A DNA stretch of 12,847 bases, from the IMG/VR virus record IMGVR_UViG_3300015157_000061, positions 1-12,847 of that record; one strand, given 5' to 3'. This document shows positions 1 to 11,456 of the stretch, piece by piece; the first letter of the stretch is position 1; the number at the start of each line of letters is the position of its first letter. The notes under the pieces were generated by a model. That model made no database searches, was not told the DNA's origin, and saw nothing but the letters and a program-made list of their open reading frames with translations. The position numbers and the translations under genes were made by a program. The stretch is from a virus (Duplodnaviria; Heunggongvirae; Uroviricota; Caudoviricetes).

Positions 1-441
1 AAGCGGCGCAATATGCTCACTGGCTACCTGCATCAGGTTGTTTTTTGTTTCTTCAGCCTCCCGGATCCGGAACAGTTTTTCTGCTTCAGTATCCTTCACC
101 CAGGCTGTGCCGTTCCACTTCTGAAACTCCCCTTCCGGCGATAACCAGGTAACATTTTCCGGTAACGGACCGAGTTCAGAAATAAATAACTCGTCCCCTG
201 ACGCTACGTCATAAACCGTTTTCCCCCGATGGTCTTCAACGAGATGCCACGATGCCTCATCACTGTTGAAAACAGCCACAAAGCCAGCAGGAATATCTGG
301 TGGTGCAATATCGGTACTGTTTGCTGGCAGACCTGTATGAGGCGGAATATATGCGTCACCTTCACCAATAAATTCATTAGTTCCGGCCAGCAGATTATAA
401 ATTTTTATGGTCCGTGCTTGTTCACTCATTCTGAATGCCAT
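1..441 (-). CDS. tfa: Tail fiber assembly protein (lambda Tfa-like); N-terminal 147 codons, 3' end runs off the window
   Basis: Minus-strand translation from ATG (439-441) reads [47 protein letters not shown]..., near-identical to the remembered lambda Tfa N-terminus. The start overlaps the stf stop (TAATG). Confidence 0.85.
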
Positions 442-3400
442 TATGCAAGCCTCACAATATAGTTAAATGCGATGTTTTTGACGGTGTTTTCCGCGTTACC
501 CGCAGCGTTAACGGTGATGGTGTGTCCATGTGAACCAATCGCAACGGAGTGCGTATGCGCACCAATACCTACAGTATGTGCATGTGCGCCAGAACTTGCT
601 GCAGTACCAGACAGCGAGTGGGTATGAGCACCTGCTGACTGTGTCTGAATACGTTGATAATACGATCTATAGGAAGAAGTCTCCGGGCTTACTTGATACT
701 GTGAATTCTGGACATAAGTGAACCCACCGCCATCATAAAATGCTAACGCAGAACCGCCGCCTCCTGGCCAACGAATACCATTACCATGAGTATGAACACC
801 GGCAGACCCCGTAGAGCCACTCAGACTGTGCGTATGCGCCCCGGTGTTATTCGTGGATTTAGTGCCGTAATCAAACGACGATGTGGTTTTCGTCCCCAAA
901 TCCGTACTGGATGCGCTGGCGCTGTGGGTGTGCGATTTTATGCCGTCCTGTTCCTGAGACAATACGGCCCGGCCACTAGCGGGTTTGCCCTTGATTGTCC
1001 AGCCGCGCATATCTGGAATAACACCTGAAGGATAGGCAATAGCCAGTTTCGGATATGCTGCCTTATCAAACGTCTGCCCCTGCATGATCGCATAACCTGC
1101 AGGTGGTGTATCTGATGGCCACGGCAGCGGAACACCTAGCGGAAACGCTTCAATATTTGCCGAGCCGTCAAATTTTACGCCGTTAATTGTCCTTGCAGTT
1201 TGCAATTTGGTTGCTGTGCTTGCATTACCCGATAAAGATCCAGTGATACCACCACTCGCGTTTAATTTAGTTGCAATTGTAACATTGCCAGTATGGTTAC
1301 TAATTATAAACGGCCTTAAGCTATTGTGCGTACCAAGACTGTTACCCGAATCTGTCAACATAAAATATGTGTTTGATCCATCATTTCGGATAAAGAATCC
1401 ATAGTTGCCATAGGCAATACGCAGACCATTTGCTGACCTTGAAATAACCTCACCAGCAGCAGTTAAACCACCTGAAAGAGTCCCTCCAGTTAATGCCAAT
1501 GCCCCAATATTTGAAGGGGTCAATGTGATATTTGCACTACCATCAAATGACACACCGTTAATCGTTCTGGCTGCCTGAAGTTTCGTGGCGGTCGCAGCAT
1601 TACCTGTAGTGTTTTGATTACCGGTAGCGTTGACTCCAGGCAAGTTGATATCTGCCGATCCATCAAATGCCACGCCCCCAATCTTACGTGCTGTCTTGAT
1701 CTTGGTCGCAGTATCTGCGTTTCCGGTCAAATTACCAGTAACACTACCACCAACTTTTAGTCCATTACCGATGGACACCAACCCTGATCTTAAGTTTATA
1801 GAGAATGGTCTTAATGAACCGATGTCTCCATTTTCCCCCTCCCCTTCATTAGTCGGAATAAGATGAAGATGATCTTCGGAACGCCTAAAAATAAGGCCAA
1901 AGGCTTGGTTGAATATTCGAAGAGCATTTATCGTGCTGATTTTTAACTGCCCTCCCATTGTGTCGCCAGTTTTTTGAACTGAACTATCTTTAACAGTTTT
2001 AACTGCCTTTGGCGTTGCCGCCAGCTTTTCACTGGTGCTGTTTGTTGCACTGCTGAGCTGTACTATCCCCTTTTTCGTCGTGCTCGCATCCTCCAGCGCC
2101 ACGGCGGATGCAATATCCTCTGCCCGTTTTGCTGCTGTCTCGGCGCGCGTTGCCGCGGATTCAGCAGCAACTTTGCTCTGAGATGCAGCCGTCGCACTGC
2201 CTGCCGCCTCTGATGCTTTCGCTGTTGCTGTCGTGGCACTACCTTTCGCTGCTGACGCTTGTCTGGTCGCCTCATCTTTTGAAGCAGACGCAGATGATGC
2301 CGATGACGCCGCTGAACTGGCTGACGATGCGGCTGCCGCCTTAGAGGAAGCAGCATTGTCTGCTGAAGTCTTTGCATTTGTTTCAGAGGTTTTTGCTGCA
2401 GAAGCAGACCTCGCTGCTGCAGTGGCTTGCTCAGTGGCTTTGCCAGCCTTCGTTGTGGCTGTTGAAGCGGATGATGCGGCGCTTTCTGCCGATTTTCCGG
2501 CGGCGGTGGCACTGGCTGAGGCCTGCCCGGCACTTGTTGACGCGGCACTGGCAGATAATGCAGCCGCTGTTTTTGAACCTGCCGCAGCTGAGGCGCTCTG
2601 TCCCGCTGCTGTTTCAGAAGACTTAGCGTTCGTCTCGGACGTTTTTGCCGCCTTCGCGGAATTTCCTGCCGCCGTTGCCGAGGAAGCTGCACTACTGGCA
2701 CTTGATGATGCATTCGTTTCTGAAGATTTCGCTGCCTCTTTTGAGGCCGCCGCACCCCGTGCCGAGGTGGCAGCTTCTGACGCCTTCGTGGTCGCTGTGG
2801 ATGCAGAAGTGGCTGCCGATTTTTGTGATGCTGCGGCATTCGTTTCTGACGTTTTCGCGGCACTGGCGCTGGTAGCTGCCGCGCTTTTTGATGACTCTGC
2901 AGCAGCAGCACTTTTTGCTGCTTCACGGGTCTTTGTCGATGCCGTTCCTGCGCTGGAAGACGCTGACTGAGCCGACGACGCGGCCTGTCCGGCTGACGTG
3001 CTGGCGGCACGTGCTGAGGCTGCAGCATCGGTTGCATGAGTTGCCGCCTCGCTGGCTGATGCACTGGCATCGCTGGCTGATTTTTTCGCGGCTGCCGTAT
3101 TCTGTGCAACCGCGGAGGCGTTACGTGACACCTCTTCCACCATCTGCTCAAAGCGGCGCAGTGCCTCCGGTCGGACATCATCCTCCGTCATGGCACCGAG
3201 AAAATCATTCAGCGTACCTGATCTGGAACCTTCATAGACGGTAATGGTCCCGGCATGTGAAGGCGGAAAACCTTCAACCAGCAGGGTGACGCTGTACTGG
3301 CCATGCTCAACATCCATGCTGTAACGTCCGGCTTCATCCGGATTTTCAGAGGCCACCGTGTTCACCACCACCGTGCTGCTGGTTCGTCTGGCCTTCAGCA

Positions 3401-3467
3401 CAATGGTGCAGTTCTGTACTGGTTTTCCTGTGCCATCTTTAAGCACGCCAGAAATTTTTACTGTCAT
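441..3467 (-). CDS. stf: Side tail fiber protein, full-length lambda Stf-like (1008 aa)
   Basis: Track ORF. N-terminus [20 protein letters not shown]... and C-terminus ...[40 protein letters not shown] match remembered lambda Stf. RBS GGTGGA lies upstream of the ATG. Contains an Ala/Ser-rich segment, a three-copy repeat block and His-rich GAHTHS motifs. Confidence 0.9.
1146..1721 (-). repeat. Three imperfect copies of a 27-aa tail fiber repeat (GNAxTATKLQxARTINGVxFDGSANI) inside stf
   Basis: Protein repeats [54 protein letters not shown] and [27 protein letters not shown] are visible at DNA level as related blocks near 1150-1220, 1540-1610 and 1650-1730. Confidence 0.75.
2030..3095 (-). repeat. 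In-frame low-complexity Ala/Ser/Thr-rich coding repeat within stf (recurring AAKTSETNA units)
   Basis: Stf residues about 125-480 are almost entirely A/S/T/K/E, with KTSETNA recurring several times. The biased composition leaves long spurious open frames on both strands. Confidence 0.8.
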
Positions 3468-4285: not shown

Positions 4286-5972
4286 TCAGCTAATCGTGAT
4301 GCCTGCAGTGGCTTTCTTCATCACAACAACCAGCAAATCGCTGATACTTGCTGTGGGATACCAGCCATTTACCCACCATGCTGATACAGAAAACTCCAGC
4401 GTCATGTGGCCGCGACCAGCAGGCATATCAATAACACCACTGTAAATCAGCGTATTATCCAGCGCGGTACGGTTATAAATTTCAGCACCGTTTTTCCGTA
4501 CTATCAGGCGGCATGACGAATAAGTATCGCTGTTCTCCCGCTCATGTCTGGCACCGCTGAAAGCCACCGCCGGAATAACAATCTGCCGGTTAAACGGCTG
4601 ATCGTCATAAACCCTGACGGTAATGGTTCCTGATGGCCAACGCTCCGGTGCACGGGAGTCACGGGGGAAAGCCTTACCCACTGTTTTAACGAGATCGCCT
4701 TCAATCTGGTTTGCAGACAGTTTCCCTCTGATGACACAGTTCTCGTTAATGGTGACATTATTGAGCGTGCCGGTATTCGCCGTGATGGCTCCACTGATAT
4801 CCGCATTGCGGGCTGTCAGCCTGCCATCCGGCGTCAGGGAAAACGTAGGAGGATTGCCGGATGACGTGATGCTCACCGCAAACAGTCGCTTCAGGAACAC
4901 GTCGTTCATGAACAGCTGATTCCCCTGCGCCACAAACAGCGGCGTGGTGTTGCCGTTCTCCGGGGTAATCATCGCGATACGGTCCGCCTGCAGCAGAATA
5001 CTGCTCAGCGTCTGACCATCAACATCCTCAATCCCCGCGCCAATCCCGGCCACATAGGGAATACCGTTTTTTGTTTTCTGCACCTTCAGCATATACATGG
5101 CATTCAGCTCATTGCGCGTGTCTGACTGAACCCGCTGGATTTGCTGTATGGTCACGGCCTGGTCACCCAGCTTTTTATCCGTGGTCGAGGTAATTTCACT
5201 CCCTTTTTTATCCACGTACTGGCGGACCTGTGCTATCTGTCGGGCGTTTTCTGACTGCCCCTGGCTGACAGTCTGTGAGATTTCACTGCTCACCCGGTCC
5301 ACTTTCTGGCTCACCTGCGCGATGGCCAGTGTCTGGTCCTCATTCTTTTTCGCAACCAGCTGCGTGAGGCTGTTTTCCGCCTTCCCGATTTTCCGGGTCA
5401 CTTCTGCGATATCCGTGTCCATCCGCTGACGGATGTCTTCTTCCAGTTGCGTGACCTCCGTACGCAGCGCTGAAGCATCAATGCGCTCTTTCAGTGCCTG
5501 GCCCAGAAGCGTCTCATCTATCAGCCCCCGGAAAATTTCCAGATACCCTTCACCATCATTGCTGGGCTGCCCGCTGGCTTCCACAAAAGCAGATTTTCCC
5601 ACCAGGTTGACGCTTCGCACGTAAAACCAGAAATCCGTCCCCGGCTTAATCCGGCTCCCATGGACAGTCCACTGACTGCCGGTCCCCAGATAACGGGCAG
5701 ATTTTTCCACCTGTGCTGTGTTCGTGATGCGTTTTTCTGAGAACCAGAATTCAAACTGTACCGTCGGGTCATACACCGCAAGACGCGGGACCGCCGTTAT
5801 CTGAAAATACCCCGGCGTCAGCTCAATGGTGGCGGGTTTTGCAGGTGCGTTAATCCTGAACGTGGTGGTGGCCGGTTCGCCCTGCTGGCCATAACTGTTA
5901 ATCGCCCTGACCGTCAGGGTGTATTCCCCCAGTGGCAGGCCGCTGAAACGGTGCTCCGTGTCTGCGGTGCTG
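4286..5972 (-). pseudogene. J: 5'-truncated tail tip / host specificity protein J; C-terminal part only, including the receptor-binding end
   Basis: The frame reads ...[79 protein letters not shown]... through ...[26 protein letters not shown]..., matching the remembered C-terminal portion of lambda J. An in-frame TGA sits at 5973-5975 and there is no ATG upstream; the track ORF begins at an internal GTG (5776). The N-terminal majority of J is absent. Confidence 0.8.
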
Positions 5973-6462
5973 CCAGTTCTCCGGGCAGGCGTTCACGCCG
6001 GATACGGTCAACATTCTCATCAAACGCCTGTTTCAGTGGGGCCGCCATCGGGATTTTCACCACATCAATAGGGTAACGGTTTTTCCCGGCCACACGCTGC
6101 ATGACATGCCAGCGACCGTTTTTTAATCGCTGAATGAATGCCCGCTGATACCGATGCTGACCGGCTTTAAGTATGCTGTTCGGACGACGGCCCAGCATCC
6201 TGATCCCCAGCTTAATCACTGGAAGATCACCGCGGTTAACGATAATTTTTGCGTTCGGATTTCTGACCGTCGCCCGTTTCAGTCTGGACCGTTCCTTAAC
6301 CAGTTTCCGGCGTACCTTTGTCTCCCGGGCAACCTGTGATGAAGACTGATTAATCGCCGTTGTGGCCACGCGGTTAATCGTCATTGCTGAAGCCGCCGGA
6401 ATGGCGTTTTTACGAACCCGGCTCAGATTATCAATCGCCTGATCAAGCCCTTTTATCGCCAT
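5914..6462 (-). CDS. Z: Tail completion protein Z-like, with the C-terminal ~19 aa replaced by out-of-frame J sequence at a deletion junction
   Basis: [66 protein letters not shown]...[30 protein letters not shown]...RIRRERLP matches remembered lambda gpZ. RBS GGGGGA precedes the ATG at 6460-6462. The tail [19 protein letters not shown] is a different reading frame of J DNA. Confidence 0.7.
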
Positions 6463-6477
6463 AATTTCCCCCTGCGT

Positions 6478-8073
6478 TTATCGTCGCCGGTTAACAGCGG
6501 GTGGTTGCCCACGGTTGTCCGTCCCCACTTCACACAGATAAACGCCCCGCTGATTGCGGGTTTTCGGCATGGTGATCACCGGCTTGCCATAGACAGACGC
6601 GCCTTTTACCGGCAGCACACGGAAAACACCGTGTTTTTTTGACCTCTGGTAGACGATTTCACCATCGATCCCCCCGGTGTCCCAGCAGACACGGGAAATG
6701 GTCATTTCGGTGCCATCCGCATGGCGGTATTTTTTGTTGATCGCCGCATCCACACGTAACAGCGTCTCTTCCTCATCAGGACGCCCCATAATGATGATTT
6801 TATCCACCAGAAAAGCTTCCTCTCCCGGTGCCCATCCCCAGACATACATCTCAAAACGGTTTCGCTGCGAGTCAATGCCCGCCGTCAGATAAACCACCCG
6901 GGCAGGCACCGCCGCCGTGTAACGCACAACCTTATCCATCAGCACCTGGTGATCGAGTTTTTCGCCCACGGCCTCTTCCCAGGTCTCGCCCAGCGTGGTG
7001 TTCACAAAGGTTTTCAGGCCGTTGGGATCTTTCAGTGCATCCAGCCAGTCATAGACTATCTGTACCCAGGTGGTGAACGGACTGTACGCTGTCCAGATAT
7101 GGAACGTGATGGAGCGCGGCGGCGGAATTTCATTATCCGCGGCGCTGAAAAACGTCAGACCGTCACGGGTCCACATCCCCGTGTTTTCACAGATCCACCG
7201 CCCGTTGCTCTGGTCAAGCTCAGACTGATGGATCACGCAGCCATGATGTTCACAGAGGTAGAAAACGCTTTCGGGGCTGTCCTTCTCCCATTTAAGGCCA
7301 AAAGGCGTGGATTCATCGCCAAATTTCAGATACTGCTCCTCCCCACAGTGTGGGCAGGGCACATAAAAACGCATGAAATGCGCCGACTCGTTGGCCGCTT
7401 TTTCGATCTGGCAGGTGCCTTTGATTTTAGGCGTCGAGCCGCGAATGGATTTGGGCCATACAGAGCCCTCAATACGTTTATCCCCAAGCAGGGTTGGCGA
7501 ACCCTCTTTTTCGACATCCGGTTCGAACGAGGAAAGTTCGTCATAGCAGACCACGTCCACGGATTTTTCACGGTAGTTTTTGGCGGCAGCGCCGCCCAGG
7601 CACCAGAAACCCACACCCGATGAAAAGCGTTTCAGCGTGAGGGTATTGTCACGATGTTTACGCCCCAGCCATGGAAAAAGGTCTTTCAGACATGGCACAT
7701 CCCGAATCGTCGCCTCCACGTGAGACTTCATAAAATCTTCAGCGGCAGAATCCGTGGGCTGAAAAAGCAGACTGTTTCGGGATTTATGCTCAATAAAATA
7801 CCCGACCACCCCCAGCAACATCTTTGTATAGCCAACACGGGCAGATTTAATCAGATTAACAGTCCGGATCTGATCATTCCCCATGCTGTTCATGATGGCG
7901 ATCTGGAACGGCAGCGTTTTCCATTCTCCCTCACCATATGAAGATTCTTTAGGCAGATAATAATTTTGATCAGCCCATTCAACTGGCGTCACCGGCAATG
8001 CCCTTATCAGGGGCTGTAATGCTGTTGTGACAGCACTCATCATATTATTCAGTTGTTGCTCTGATATATTCAT
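6478..8073 (-). pseudogene. A: Terminase large subunit (lambda gpA-like), truncated: about 520 N-terminal residues then a 12-aa foreign tail
   Basis: MNISEQQLNN...VEWADQNYYLPKESSYGEGEWKTLPFQIAIMN...KSARVGYTKML...FMRFYVPCPHCGEEQYLKFGD...IWTAYSPFTTWVQIV...KGASVYGKPV...GVYLCEVGTD tracks remembered lambda gpA. It then ends ...NRGQPPAVNRRR* instead of the remaining ~110 aa. The likely true start is the internal Met (8071-8073), which overlaps the nu1 3' end as in lambda; the track ORF starts at 8130. Confidence 0.85.
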
Positions 8074-8554
8074 CGAGTAAATCCGGTAATTTATCCCCCG
8101 CCCGCGCACACTGATTTGCCCCCTTCGCAATAAGGGTTTTCAGATGGTCAAGATGGCGCGGTGTTAAATCAGGAAACTGTCGCTGCATGGATAAAGGGAT
8201 GGAATCAAGCGTACTGGATAACGCCATTGCCAGCTTGCTGAGGGCAAAAATACAGAACCCGGTATCAATAAGTTTTCCTTTTGACACCTCATTTTTTAAC
8301 TGCTGTGTAACAGCCTGTTCTGCTGTCAGTTCCCATCTGGCAATAAGCAATTTCTCCTCATAGTCGTCTTCGCTATCGCCATCAGGCACATCGTTTTTAC
8401 TTCTTCTCAGATACGATATGTAAAAATCGCGCCAGGCATCCAGATCCAGTTGCCCTCGCTTATTCGATATCGGGGCACCCGGCAATTTCTGCAATCTGCG
8501 AAGCTGGCGATCGGTCAGACTTAAATGCCTGGCAACTTCAGTCTGCGTAGCCAC
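8045..8554 (-). CDS. nu1: Terminase small subunit (Nu1-like DNA packaging protein), GTG start
   Basis: 169-aa ORF with an N-terminal HTH-like segment (TQTEVARHLSLTDRQLRRLQ). The C-terminal half (DTGFCIFALSKLAMALSSTLDSIPLSMQRQFPDLTPRHLDHLK...LLDEYI) parallels remembered lambda Nu1. It lies about 185 bp from cosN. Confidence 0.85.
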   Translation of the reverse strand: MATQTEVARHLSLTDRQLRRLQKLPGAPISNKRGQLDLDAWRDFYISYLRRSKNDVPDGDSEDDYEEKLLIARWELTAEQAVTQQLKNEVSKGKLIDTGFCIFALSKLAMALSSTLDSIPLSMQRQFPDLTPRHLDHLKTLIAKGANQCARAGDKLPDLLDEYIRATTE

Positions 8555-8737
8555 TCCTCACCTCGCAAAAACTCTCACTTCACAATCACAACAAAACCGG
8601 TCATGTCCGGCTTACATGTCTATTTTTTGTGCATGTCCGGTTCACAGAAGACCTCTTTTTTTATTTTTCATATAGTTAACTTGAAGAGAAACCGGACATG
8701 GTTCCCGGAAAATTTTCATAAATAGCGAAAACCCGCG
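8555..8737 (-). promoter_or_regulatory. cosB-like terminase-binding region with three copies of a 9-bp element (CATGTCCGG) plus a partial copy
   Basis: CATGTCCGG occurs at 8602-8610 and 8632-8640, and inverted (CCGGACATG) at 8692-8700. ACATGTC at 8614-8620 is a partial copy. AT-rich tracts lie between them. The position between cosN and nu1 equals lambda cosB (R3-I1-R2-R1). Confidence 0.6.
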
Positions 8738-8749
8738 AGGTCGCCGCCC
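8738..8749 (-). other. cosN cohesive-end site (12-nt GGGCGGCGACCT on the minus strand)
   Basis: Minus strand 8760 to 8701 reads AGACCGTTACG-GGGCGGCGACCT-CGCGGGTTTTCGCTATTTATGAAAATTTTCCGG, a near-exact match to the remembered lambda cos junction. Confidence 0.85.
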
Positions 8750-8972: not shown

Positions 8973-10040
8973 ATGAGTCAACATCAATATTATCCACAGC
9001 TGAAATGGAAGCCTGCTGAATATGAATCTCTGATGCTTTTAGATCAAACTACGCTCTCTGGTTTTACTCCGATCATTACCATTCCAGACATAGACTGGGA
9101 TTATGAAAACGAATGCTACAAGAAGAGTTTGAGTTCTTACTTATCTGACTTCGGTATTAACCTTGCGGCATCCTGGAAAGCCAATCGTCCTGTTTTGCTG
9201 GATGTTAAATATTTAGATAAACATGGTTCGAGCCGCCATCATCCTCTAGATATGTGTATCCAAGATGCTAGAGTAAATGGTAAGGAAATTATCCCTGTTG
9301 TTTCTCCCGCATATTCAACAAACTATATACATGCTGTTCAACGCAACTTAATCAATGGGCTCGCTATATCTATCACCCCCCAGACATGGCACCAATTCAC
9401 AAGTCTGGTTAACCACTTAAATATTCATCCTAGTTTAATTGATGTAATCATTGATTTTGGAGATATTCAAAACGCAACTGATAGTTTAAAACAACAAGCA
9501 TTAAGCATGGTCAACACATTATCAGGCCAAGCTCCGTGGAGAAACTTGATTTTATCTTCAACCGCATACCCAGCATCACAGGCAGGGATACCGCAACATC
9601 AAGTTCATCATATTCCGCGCCATGAATACGATCTTTGGATGTACGTAGTACAGAATTTTAGCAATGGAAGAACGCCAAGTTTTAGTGATTATCCCACCGC
9701 TAGCTCTACCATTACGAGCGTAGACCCACGCTTCATGTCTCAGTATGTCTCAGTGAGATATTCGAACGATACCTCATGGATCTTTGTAAAAGGTACCGCA
9801 GTTAAAGGAAATGGATGGGGCCAAACTAAAAACTTATGTACTACCCTTGTTAGTTCGCCAGAGTATCAAGTCTTTGGTTCCAAATTTAGTTGGGGGGATG
9901 ATTACATTTACCAAAGATCATTAGGCGCTAACAAATCTGGCGGCTCTAAAGAATGGCGTAAAGTTGCACATACGCACCATATTACGTTAGTCGTGAGACA
10001 GCTTTATTGGTTGGCGCAGACTCAGCCTGCCAAGCCTTAA
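8973..10040 (+). CDS. Hypothetical 355-aa protein in an AT-rich cargo island; possibly Beta-protein / sce7725-like (unverified)
   Basis: Track ORF with a strong RBS (AAGGAG, 5-nt spacer) before ATG 8973, AT-rich composition unlike the flanking phage genes, and no recognisable catalytic motif. The family suggestion rests only on size and the N-terminal YYPQLKWKPAEYESL pattern, from memory. Confidence 0.75.
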   Translation: MSQHQYYPQLKWKPAEYESLMLLDQTTLSGFTPIITIPDIDWDYENECYKKSLSSYLSDFGINLAASWKANRPVLLDVKYLDKHGSSRHHPLDMCIQDARVNGKEIIPVVSPAYSTNYIHAVQRNLINGLAISITPQTWHQFTSLVNHLNIHPSLIDVIIDFGDIQNATDSLKQQALSMVNTLSGQAPWRNLILSSTAYPASQAGIPQHQVHHIPRHEYDLWMYVVQNFSNGRTPSFSDYPTASSTITSVDPRFMSQYVSVRYSNDTSWIFVKGTAVKGNGWGQTKNLCTTLVSSPEYQVFGSKFSWGDDYIYQRSLGANKSGGSKEWRKVAHTHHITLVVRQLYWLAQTQPAKP

Positions 10041-10602
10041 CTTTCCAGCCTACGCGTTTCTTTAAGGCTGTTCTGACTTCAAGCCTGAGATTCGCTATTG
10101 GAATATTTTCCGCAATAATATTCCATAACTCAAATCGGGGCTTGCTTTTGATTCCTTTGGAATAGCCCCATCGTTCAAGTACGTCGATACATTCATCTTT
10201 CCAAAGCAATTGAGCGAGCATCAATGTGTCATGGTTTCGATTAAGCTTTTCTCCACGCATGTGCTTTATAAGAATGGCGCCTTTTGGCCCAACAGAAACC
10301 GTTTTAACGCCCCACCAACCTGGGATTAACTTTAATGCTCCCTCAAGATGTTTCTCAGCTACGACAAGAGTAACCTTGTCCATTACAGAAGAATAATGCT
10401 TGATTTGAAGAGGCAAACGCTCCAAAGAGTCATATTCACTTTTGAGCTCGTACCCGTGTATAACACCATTTATTACAGCAATGTCTGCTCTACTGGCGCC
10501 AAGGGATATGGAAAATTCATCGACCACAAGGCAGTCTGGATCTAAATGCGATTCTTTCAAAAGCTTATGATGCACCGCGAACCTAACATCTTGATCTTTC
10601 AT
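9982..10602 (-). CDS. Hypothetical 206-aa protein with a PD-(D/E)xK nuclease-like motif; possibly sce7726-like (unverified)
   Basis: Track ORF with a strong RBS (AGGGAGTAAGGAG, 5-nt spacer) before ATG 10600-10602. Motif VVDE(29)F...RAD(40)IAVINGVIHGYE(52)LK(54) fits the E / D / ExK restriction-endonuclease-fold signature. Its 3' end overlaps the 355-aa gene by 59 bp, convergently. Confidence 0.75.
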   Translation of the reverse strand: MKDQDVRFAVHHKLLKESHLDPDCLVVDEFSISLGASRADIAVINGVIHGYELKSEYDSLERLPLQIKHYSSVMDKVTLVVAEKHLEGALKLIPGWWGVKTVSVGPKGAILIKHMRGEKLNRNHDTLMLAQLLWKDECIDVLERWGYSKGIKSKPRFELWNIIAENIPIANLRLEVRTALKKRVGWKVKAWQAESAPTNKAVSRLT

Positions 10603-10624
10603 GACTTCTCCTTACTCCCTCCGT

Positions 10625-10665
10625 TATTGAATTATAGCGCACTGCATTTTACTGCATTTGAGAGA
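10625..10665 (-). promoter_or_regulatory. Putative promoter/operator for the 206-aa gene: perfect TATAAT -10 plus tandem direct repeat
   Basis: Minus-strand TATAAT at 10636..10631, about 28 nt upstream of the ATG. Tandem ACTGCATTTT / ACTGCATTTG (10641-10660) occupies the -35 position; no canonical TTGACA. Confidence 0.35.
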
Positions 10666-10952
10666 TTTGACCACTTCAATCACAAAATGCTTATCTGCAG
10701 CAACAAGATTCATAGCCATACGACTATGGTGATTACCTTTTGTCTGGAAAACTGACCATTCCACGAAGATCAGATAGGTCTATAGAATCTTGGTTTGTCA
10801 TAGCGTTCGCCTTACTTTGAGATGAACCTTTGCTGCATAGGAGATCAGCCCGTCAAGGCTCACCAGCACTAACTGACTACTCAAAGGCTCATTCCAAAGG
10901 GTTTGGTTCGACGTGGTTGAGTGCACTGCGGTGCGCGGTGAAATACCTGTAC

Positions 10953-10982
10953 AAAAATGCCCCGCATCTGCGAGGCATTTTC
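10953..10982. terminator. Bidirectional rho-independent terminator-like hairpin downstream of Rz
   Basis: AAAAATGCC-C-CGC-ATCT-GCG-A-GGCATTTTC: GC-rich stem of about 11 bp with one mismatch, flanked by an A-run upstream and a T-run downstream. Confidence 0.55.
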
Positions 10983-11018
10983 CTGAAAGTCACGTATTAA
11001 ATTTCAGTGAAATTAAAA

Positions 11019-11456
11019 TTATTTTAAGCACTGCGTCCTGATGTACTCCTGCAGGTAGTTGACCTGCGCGGTTATCTTGTCGATTCCACTTCGGAGACGG
11101 TAATAATTGAGTTCAGCATCTGCTGTAAGTCTTGGGCTTTCTCCATTGCCCATGCCGCTGGCTCCGGTCGTTGACTTTGCACAGGTAGCGGCGACTTGCA
11201 GGCGCTTACGCCCAGCAGAAACATCAGCACGGAGGCTTTCGATAGTCGCGTTAGCATCAGCAAGCTCCTTTGTATATCTGGCATCGAGTTCTGCTACGTC
11301 ACGTTGACGCTTCTGCATATCAGCGATTGTGGATGTGGCTTTATCGCGCTGCTCTTTGTAGGTTATGGCGTTATCACGGTAATGATTCAGCCCCAGACTA
11401 AGCGCACCACAGGCCACCAGCAGGGCAATGATGACCACGCACAGTACGCGGTTCAT
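11019..11456 (-). CDS. Rz: Rz i-spanin (inner membrane spanin component)
   Basis: 145-aa ORF with an N-terminal TM segment and NHYRDNAITYKEQRDK...RQRDVAELDARYTKELADA...SPRL, closely matching remembered lambda Rz. GGTGG RBS precedes the start. Confidence 0.9.
   Translation of the reverse strand: MNRVLCVVIIALLVACGALSLGLNHYRDNAITYKEQRDKATSTIADMQKRQRDVAELDARYTKELADANATIESLRADVSAGRKRLQVAATCAKSTTGASGMGNGESPRLTADAELNYYRLRSGIDKITAQVNYLQEYIRTQCLK
11072..11257 (-). CDS. Rz1: Rz1 o-spanin lipoprotein, embedded in the +1 frame of Rz
   Basis: Embedded ORF MLTRLSKASVLMFLLGVSAC-KSPLPVQSQRPEPAAW...: signal peptide with lipobox (VSAC) followed by a Pro-rich stretch. The track ORF starts 9 codons upstream; the second Met is taken as the start. 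Confidence 0.7.
   Translation of the reverse strand: MLTRLSKASVLMFLLGVSACKSPLPVQSQRPEPAAWAMEKAQDLQQMLNSIITVSEVESTR

What the first reader, a model, noticed from the sequence alone, without database searches (positions are those of the whole stretch)
6478..6530. Deletion junction 1: terminase gpA truncated and fused in frame to a short tail just upstream of Z
Homology to lambda gpA stops after ...GVYLCEVGTD, and the ORF ends 12 codons later (NRGQPPAVNRRR*), only 15 nt before the Z start. In lambda the gene directly before Z is FII, and I recall its C-terminus as ...GVPPAVNRRR. This points to a deletion from mid-A to the last codons of FII, removing W, B, C, Nu3, D, E, FI and most of FII.
Basis: partly seen in the sequence, partly recalled or inferred. 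Interest (0 to 1): 0.45.

Follow-up and report, generated by a model that had tools for sequence, protein, structure and literature searches.

The report
Deletion scar in a decaying prophage
A 5.8-kb deletion in a dead lambda-like virus embedded in an E. coli chromosome removed all head genes and fused the cut-off DNA-packaging gene to the last 12 codons of a head-tail joining gene; this is ordinary prophage decay.

Summary
On the minus strand, a lambda-type terminase large subunit gene (A) runs colinearly with lambda gpA through residue D519. It then reads NRGQPPAVNRRR-stop, and the Z start lies 15 nt further on.

An intact prophage at the same potB/potC site in E. coli ATCC 25922 is identical over all 1557 nt of the retained A. 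Its FII ends ...LNRGQPPAVNRRR. Against it, the breakpoint maps to window 6517/6516, a 2-nt CA microhomology.

The deletion is 5849 bp. It removes A codons 520-642, W, B, C/Nu3, D, E, FI and FII codons 1-105.

The fusion is in frame. That means little: one junction in three is in frame by chance, and only 12 codons follow.

The same junction, with identical DNA, is in 3 of 5426 complete E. coli genomes and in every metagenome or assembly contig I read. NCBI's annotation pipeline (PGAP) already flags the gene there as a C-terminally incomplete pseudogene.

Carriers differ in later deletions (U-K, Z-J, within J, lom-stf), so junction 1 predates them. The truncated protein lacks about 28% of the nuclease domain and the prohead-binding tail, and should be dead for packaging.

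This is a routine illegitimate-recombination scar and of low interest.

The parts
6518..8073 (-). A-derived part of the fused ORF: codons 1-519 of a lambda-type terminase large subunit. The ATPase domain is complete. The nuclease domain is cut at 212 of 294 profile positions.
   Evidence: Identical at all 1557 nt to the ATCC 25922 A gene. 69% identical to lambda gpA 1-519 with no gaps. Pfam GpA_ATPase at 48-293 and GpA_nuclease at 323-520.
6516..6517 (-). Breakpoint of deletion 1: the dinucleotide CA, shared by the A side and the FII side (microhomology).
   Evidence: Three-line alignment of the window against the A and FII regions of L005.
6478..6515 (-). FII-derived tail: the rest of hybrid codon AAC (N), FII codons 107-117 (RGQPPAVNRRR) and the TAA stop.
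   Evidence: 100% identical to L005 19935-19972. The ATCC 25922 FII ends LNRGQPPAVNRRR*.
6463..6477 (-). Native FII-Z intergenic spacer (15 nt, ACGCAGGGGGAAATT), carrying the Z ribosome-binding site.
   Evidence: Contiguous with the FII tail and Z, as in the intact relative.
5914..6462 (-). Z-like minor tail gene. It is itself truncated: Z residues 1-164, then 18 out-of-frame codons read from J DNA.
   Evidence: The second junction is at 5972-5971.
5971..5972 (-). Breakpoint of deletion 2 (Z to mid-J), with CA microhomology. About 9.3 kb of the reference is missing (L005/REF 20480-29809).
   Evidence: Found only in the window and L013.
8045..8554 (-). Terminase small subunit (Nu1-like), intact. 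It overlaps the A start by 29 nt.
   Evidence: Same protein accession, WP_000235436.1, as in the intact prophage. Pfam Phage_Nu1.
8705..8749 (-). cos region, identical to lambda nucleotides 1-45.
   Evidence: blastn against the lambda left end, 45/45.

Best explanation
The junction is the scar of one spontaneous 5849-bp deletion in a lambda-like prophage integrated between potB and potC of E. coli.

**How it arose.** The deletion came from illegitimate, homology-independent recombination. Only a CA dinucleotide is shared at the two ends.

**What it removed.** The last 123 codons of terminase gene A, the whole head module (W, B, C/Nu3, D, E, FI) and the first 105 codons of FII. By chance the two reading frames coincide at the join. 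The truncated A therefore reads through 12 FII codons to FII's own stop, and the native FII-Z spacer and Z start remain.

**Consequences (inferred).**
- The element cannot make heads.
- The 531-aa product keeps its N-terminal part and its complete ATPase domain.
- It lacks the last quarter or so of the nuclease domain and the C-terminal prohead (portal)-binding segment.
- It therefore cannot support packaging.

**Shown here:** breakpoints, deleted content, frame, the shared junction in independent assemblies, and later nested deletions.

**Inferred:** loss of function, and the recombination mechanism.
For: **Breakpoint**
- Base-level mapping against an intact relative at the same att site shows zero mismatches in the retained A. 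FII/Z is 99.8% identical.
- There is no homology between the breakpoint flanks beyond chance. The best local score is 9, against a shuffle mean of 8.75.
- A microhomology of 2 nt or more is expected at about 16% of random junctions.

**Distribution**
- The junction is present, with identical DNA, in 3 complete genomes from Hong Kong, Japan and Myanmar.
- It is also in all 10 metagenome or assembly contigs read. The exact protein is listed in 82 blocks of the collection.
- PGAP annotates the gene as 'incomplete; missing C-terminus'.

**Later decay**
- Carriers differ: 11 have a U-K deletion, and the window plus L013 have a Z-J deletion.
- DLI.5a has a deletion inside J and an IS421 insertion, and lacks the holin and lysozyme genes. 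L006 has a lom-stf fusion.
- TOE17 also carries IS1 and ISKpn26 insertions in the early region.

**Domains and function**
- The Pfam nuclease domain is cut at 212 of 294 positions.
- In lambda, losing only the last 5 residues of gpA (Aam42) abolishes prohead binding and gives a very low yield (PMC4856287).
Against: - No direct evidence bears on expression or on loss of activity.
- The retained A DNA has no differences from the intact allele. Neutral decay and selection for retention therefore cannot be told apart.
- The intact relative is not the literal ancestor. The Rz-cos moron slot and the lysis region differ.
Confidence: 0.95

Rival explanations
1. The short C-terminal tail is native: this is a naturally shorter terminase variant that sits directly upstream of Z.
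For: The ORF is intact and 531 aa long, with both Pfam domains detected.
Against: - The same A allele, with 0 of 1557 nt different, continues for 123 more codons in ATCC 25922 and many other genomes.
- The 12-residue tail and the DNA after it are the 3' end of FII.
- The nuclease profile is cut at 212 of 294 positions.
Confidence: 0.01
2. The junction is an assembly or chimera artefact of the source contig.
For: None specific. Prophage repeats do often cause misassemblies.
Against: An identical junction occurs in 3 closed chromosomes and in 10 independently assembled contigs from ENA, JGI and Logan.
Confidence: 0.01
3. The truncated terminase, with intact Nu1 and cos, is retained because it is useful. 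One version: it poisons the terminase of incoming lambdoid phages that share Nu1/A specificity. Another version: the retained cos lets the roughly 37-kb remnant be packaged in trans by a helper prophage.
For: - cos, Nu1 and the A' reading frame are all intact. The exact protein recurs in many samples.
- Defective lambdoid prophages lacking their own terminase can be packaged through a shared cos (PMC2669165).
Against: - All copies are identical at DNA level, so recurrence reflects clonal descent, not selection.
- The lambda allele Aam42, which truncates gpA, was complemented in trans by a co-infecting A+ phage. Yield rose about 2000-fold, as expected of a recessive defect (PMC4856287).
- The rest of the element is visibly decaying through IS insertions and further deletions.
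Confidence: 0.04

Closest known systems
Defective lambdoid prophages of E. coli with deleted or disrupted morphogenetic genes (for example the O157 Sakai Sp prophage pool)
   Same: A lambda-like gene order in which head and tail genes are lost or broken by deletions and IS insertions, while cos and parts of the packaging module persist (PMC2669165).
   Different: This is a different element, at potB/potC. Here the exact breakpoint and an intact counterpart at the same site are available, and terminase itself is truncated. In Sakai, all lambdoid prophages but Sp4 keep an intact terminase.
E. coli K-12 cryptic prophage DLP12: nohD (Nu1 homologue) followed by aaaD, a truncated terminase-A pseudogene that abuts tail-fibre-assembly remnants
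   Same: The same kind of scar: Nu1 kept, A cut short, the head module gone. This rests on my own knowledge of the K-12 annotation and was not tested here.
   Different: It is a different prophage with different breakpoints.
Lambda gpA C-terminal truncation mutant Aam42
   Same: A loss of the gpA C-terminus that removes prohead (portal) binding. The terminase still forms but cannot dock (PMC4856287).
   Different: Aam42 lacks 5 residues and is nicking-competent. The protein here lacks 123 residues, including roughly the last 80 profile positions of the nuclease domain, so cos nicking is probably lost too.
Intact prophage of E. coli ATCC 25922 at potB/potC (NZ_CP009072, about 3.951-3.988 Mb)
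   Same: Same integration site and the same tail-fibre and right-end genes. Nu1 and Z have identical protein accessions, and A codons 1-519 are identical at DNA level.
   Different: It has the full A (642 aa), W, B, C/Nu3, D, E, FI, FII, Z, U, V, G, T, H, M, L, K, I and J. It carries different genes in the Rz-cos slot.

Membership tests
Lambda-type terminase large subunit (gpA; PF05876 + PF20454) | Complete N-terminal gpA ATPase domain | tested here: met
   PF05876 at residues 48-293, covering 4-247 of 247 profile positions, E = 2.9e-56.
Lambda-type terminase large subunit (gpA; PF05876 + PF20454) | Complete C-terminal endonuclease domain | tested here: not met
   PF20454 is matched only to profile position 212 of 294. 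The intact relative reaches 286 of 294.
Lambda-type terminase large subunit (gpA; PF05876 + PF20454) | C-terminal prohead (portal)-binding segment | tested here: not met
   Residues 520-642 of the intact protein are absent and replaced by 12 FII residues. For the role of this segment see PMC4856287.
FII head-tail joining protein | A full-length FII coding sequence of about 117 aa | tested here: not met
   Only codon 106 (partial) to codon 117 remain, read as the tail of A'.
Deletion scar in a defective prophage | Both flanks colinear with a single intact relative, with the intervening genes absent | tested here: met
   The flanks match REF 11814-14085 and 19933-20479. The 5849 bp between them are missing.
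Deletion scar in a defective prophage | The junction is reproducible in independent assemblies, so it is not an artefact | tested here: met
   13 other loci carry the identical junction.
Deletion scar in a defective prophage | Formed by illegitimate rather than homologous or site-specific recombination | tested here: met
   There is a 2-nt microhomology and no flank similarity above shuffled controls. No IS or att-like repeat lies at the junction.

The most novel reading that the evidence does not exclude
The intact cos-Nu1-A' cassette might be kept because it interferes with, or exploits, co-resident or incoming lambdoid phages of the same packaging specificity. It could act as a dominant-negative terminase subunit, or as a cos handle for helper-mediated transfer of the remnant together with its beta/cII-like defence genes.
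Probability: 0.04. Interest if true: 0.5.

Novelty: already known. Interest (0 to 1): 0.08.

Why it matters
It matters little beyond annotation.

- It shows that the 531-aa 'terminase' ORF, which recurs in many E. coli assemblies and metagenomes, is a pseudogene fusion and not a new terminase variant.
- It gives a clean, base-resolved example of stepwise prophage decay. One shared head-module deletion is followed by different lineage-specific deletions, all with 0-7 nt of microhomology.
- The junction sequence could serve as a lineage marker for this potB/potC prophage remnant.

Tried and rejected
**Searches that found nothing**
- Exact-junction scans of the GTDB species representatives and of IMG/VR gave no match. 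The junction is confined to particular E. coli lineages and is not seen in viral contigs.
- A PDB sequence search with the intact A protein gave no solved relative, so nuclease catalytic residues could not be placed structurally.
- A local alignment of ±150 nt around the two breakpoints, direct and inverted, scored no better than shuffles. That rules out homologous or palindrome-mediated deletion.

**Test that could not be run**
- Selection on A': all copies are identical, so no dN/dS is possible.

**Readings considered and dropped**
- That the in-frame fusion is meaningful. One junction in three is in frame by chance, only 12 codons follow, and the window's second junction (Z-J) is out of frame.
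- The mechanical ORF start at TTG 8130. I prefer ATG 8073, by colinearity with lambda gpA and the RefSeq annotation.

Full report
**What is in the window**

Read on the minus strand, the window is the late region of a lambda-like prophage.

| Feature | Window coordinates |
|---|---|
| Lysozyme | 12288-11755 |
| Rz | 11456-11019 |
| Two-gene insert | 10602-8973 |
| cos, identical to lambda nt 1-45 | 8749-8705 |
| Nu1 | 8554-8045 |
| Terminase-A ORF | 8073-6478 |
| Z-like ORF | 6462-5914 |
| C-terminal J fragment | 5776-4286 |
| lom | 4218-3619 |
| 1008-aa tail fibre | 3467-441 |

**Checking the observation**

- The A ORF ends ...RGVYLCEVGTDNRGQPPAVNRRR*. Its TAA is at 6480-6478, and exactly 15 nt separate it from the Z ATG at 6462.
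- BLASTP against lambda gpA gives one gap-free alignment of residues 1-519 at 69% identity. It stops at GTD519, and the last 12 residues do not align to gpA.

**Mapping the breakpoint**

A megablast of the region against complete E. coli genomes found hundreds of genomes with 100%-identical Nu1-A DNA. In these, the match stops at the position equivalent to window 6512-6516. One of them, ATCC 25922, has a fully intact prophage: Nu1, A (642 aa), W, portal, C/Nu3, D, E, FI, FII, Z, U, V, G, T, H, M, L, K, I, J, lom, stf and tfa.

Base-by-base comparison with that prophage gives the following:

- The window matches its A gene with zero mismatches over 1557 nt, up to L005 14085.
- The window matches FII/Z from L005 19933 onward.
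- The two matches overlap by the dinucleotide CA (window 6517-6516).
- ATCC 25922 FII ends LNRGQPPAVNRRR*, which explains the tail exactly, including the N and the Q.

The deleted interval is L005 14086-19934, which is 5849 bp. It contains A codons 520-642, W, B, C/Nu3, D, E, FI and FII codons 1-105.

A retains 519 codons plus 1 nt, and FII resumes at position 2 of codon 106. The hybrid codon is AAC (N), and the fusion is in frame with FII. In lambda numbering, this corresponds to a deletion from just after gpA D519 to FII codon 106.

**Mechanism of the deletion**

- The ±150-nt flanks of the two breakpoints share no similarity above shuffled controls, in either orientation. The score is 9, against a shuffle mean of 8.75 ± 1.05.
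- A microhomology of 2 nt or more is expected at about 16% of random joins.
- No IS element or att-like repeat lies at the junction.
- This is illegitimate, essentially homology-independent recombination.
- The in-frame outcome has a prior of one in three and adds only 12 codons. The window's second junction is out of frame. I attach no significance to the frame.

**Is the junction real, and how widespread is it?**

- A 160-nt probe across the junction is fully matched in 3 of 5426 complete E. coli genomes. They are DLI.5a (Hong Kong sediment), AST46 (Japan, human) and TOE17 (Myanmar, human).
- In all three, PGAP annotates the gene as 'phage terminase large subunit family protein, incomplete; missing C-terminus'.
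- The exact 531-aa protein is indexed in 82 blocks of the assembly collection. All 10 contigs returned carry the identical junction and identical A' DNA.
- There was no hit in the GTDB species representatives or in IMG/VR.
- An assembly artefact is excluded. The identical DNA indicates clonal descent of a recent event.

**Order of decay events**

All positions below use the ATCC 25922 prophage as reference.

| Event | Carriers | Reference interval | Microhomology |
|---|---|---|---|
| Deletion 1 (A-FII) | all | 14086-19934 | CA (2 nt) |
| U-K deletion | 11 carriers | 20732-26612 | none exact |
| Z-J deletion | window and L013 only | 20480-29809 | CA (window 5972-5971) |
| Deletion inside J (997 bp) | DLI.5a | 29858-30854 | GGGGAAT (7 nt) |
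| lom-stf fusion | L006 | 31917-33493 | TG (2 nt) |

- The Z-J deletion spans the whole U-K interval.
- DLI.5a additionally has IS421 in a methyltransferase gene. Its stretch of the prophage also has no holin or lysozyme gene.
- In TOE17 the whole element lies between potB and potC and is about 37 kb. It has integrase and excisionase, IS1 in the exonuclease gene and ISKpn26 in the replication region.
- The intact ATCC 25922 prophage abuts potB in the same way, with the same right-end genes. Its potC side was not read.
- Junction 1 is thus an early step, shared by all carriers, in an ongoing and ordinary decay series. Whether the Z-J deletion arose on a background that already carried the U-K deletion cannot be resolved.

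**Functional consequence (inferred)**

- Pfam finds the gpA ATPase domain complete, at residues 48-293.
- The gpA nuclease domain is matched only to profile position 212 of 294. The intact protein reaches 286 of 294.
- TerL proteins carry the translocation ATPase in the N-terminal domain and the endonuclease in the C-terminal domain (PMC4669245; PMC4856287).
- The extreme C-terminus of lambda gpA docks on the portal. Loss of only its last 5 residues (Aam42) prevents prohead binding and gives a very low yield (PMC4856287).
- The fused product lacks 123 native residues, and the element has no portal, capsid or scaffold genes. It should therefore be non-functional for packaging.
- In the same paper, a co-infecting A+ phage rescued Aam42 in trans, raising its yield about 2000-fold. 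This is the recessive behaviour the authors expected, and it weighs against a dominant-negative role.
- Defective lambdoid prophages can nevertheless be packaged in trans through a shared cos (PMC2669165). The cos here is intact, so helper-mediated transfer is not excluded.

**Comparison with what is known**

This is the standard picture of cryptic lambdoid prophages: deletion and IS disruption of morphogenetic genes (PMC2669165). From my own knowledge, not tested here, the K-12 DLP12 remnant shows the same type of scar: nohD followed by the truncated A pseudogene aaaD.

The ORF is not a full member of the gpA family in the functional sense, because the nuclease domain and the prohead-binding tail fail the test. 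It is not an FII gene either.

**Verdict**

The kind of feature is already known, and interest is low. The only non-trivial residual possibility is that the cos-Nu1-A' cassette is exploited for interference or for hitch-hiking. I put this at about 4%.

Noticed in passing
window 8973-10602 (Beta_protein 8973-10040 on +; sce7726-family 10602-9982 on -): A two-gene insert sits in the moron slot between Rz and cos. The genes are convergent and overlap by 59 nt. They are homologues of satellite P4 beta (PF14350; PADLOC PD-Lambda-2_C 4e-32, 'beta' 3.5e-10) and P4 cII (NF033832 sce7726_fam; PADLOC 'cll' 4e-31). No gop-like gene is evident. P4 gop-beta-cII protects against lambda and P1 (PMC9122126), and PD-lambda-2C is a related component required for defence (PMC9519451). 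This is a candidate gop-less anti-phage pair. It replaces the TonB-family gene and the small ORFs found in this slot in the intact ATCC 25922 prophage.
   Followed up: partly
window 5971-5972 (minus strand); Z' ORF 6462-5914 and J' ORF 5776-4286: This is a second deletion junction. Z is cut after residue 164 and joined out of frame to the middle of J, with a CA microhomology. About 9.3 kb of the reference is missing: the Z 3' end, U, V, G, T, H, M, L, K, I and the J 5' part. Among junction-1 carriers it is found only in the window and in metagenome contig L013. Eleven other carriers have a smaller U-K deletion instead.
   Followed up: yes
L004 (DLI.5a) 18115-18127; L006 17649-17660; L019 (TOE17): Related copies carry private decay events. 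DLI.5a has a 997-bp deletion inside J at a 7-nt GGGGAAT repeat and IS421 in a methyltransferase gene, and it lacks the holin and lysozyme genes. L006 has a lom-stf fusion, called as a 732-aa product. TOE17 has IS1 and ISKpn26 in the early region.
   Followed up: partly
window 8705-8749: The cos region is 45/45 identical to the lambda left end. The adjacent Nu1 and the 5' part of A, by contrast, gave no megablast match to lambda or phage 21, and only the 3' two-thirds of A is about 90% identical to phage 21 gene 2. The packaging module is therefore mosaic.
   Followed up: no
L002 (phage PhiR12_1, PV340549) 9001-11088: A set of phages named PhiR12_1 to PhiR12_5, with hosts K-12 MG1655 or E. coli C, carry an intact Nu1-A that is 97.3% identical to the window's. 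They would be natural test phages for interference by the truncated terminase or for packaging of the remnant in trans.
   Followed up: no
window 441-3467 (minus strand): The 1008-aa tail-fibre gene has a long Ala/Ser/Thr-rich low-complexity central region. This creates several long spurious ORFs in other frames on both strands, for example 2063-3181 and 2233-2970.
   Followed up: no
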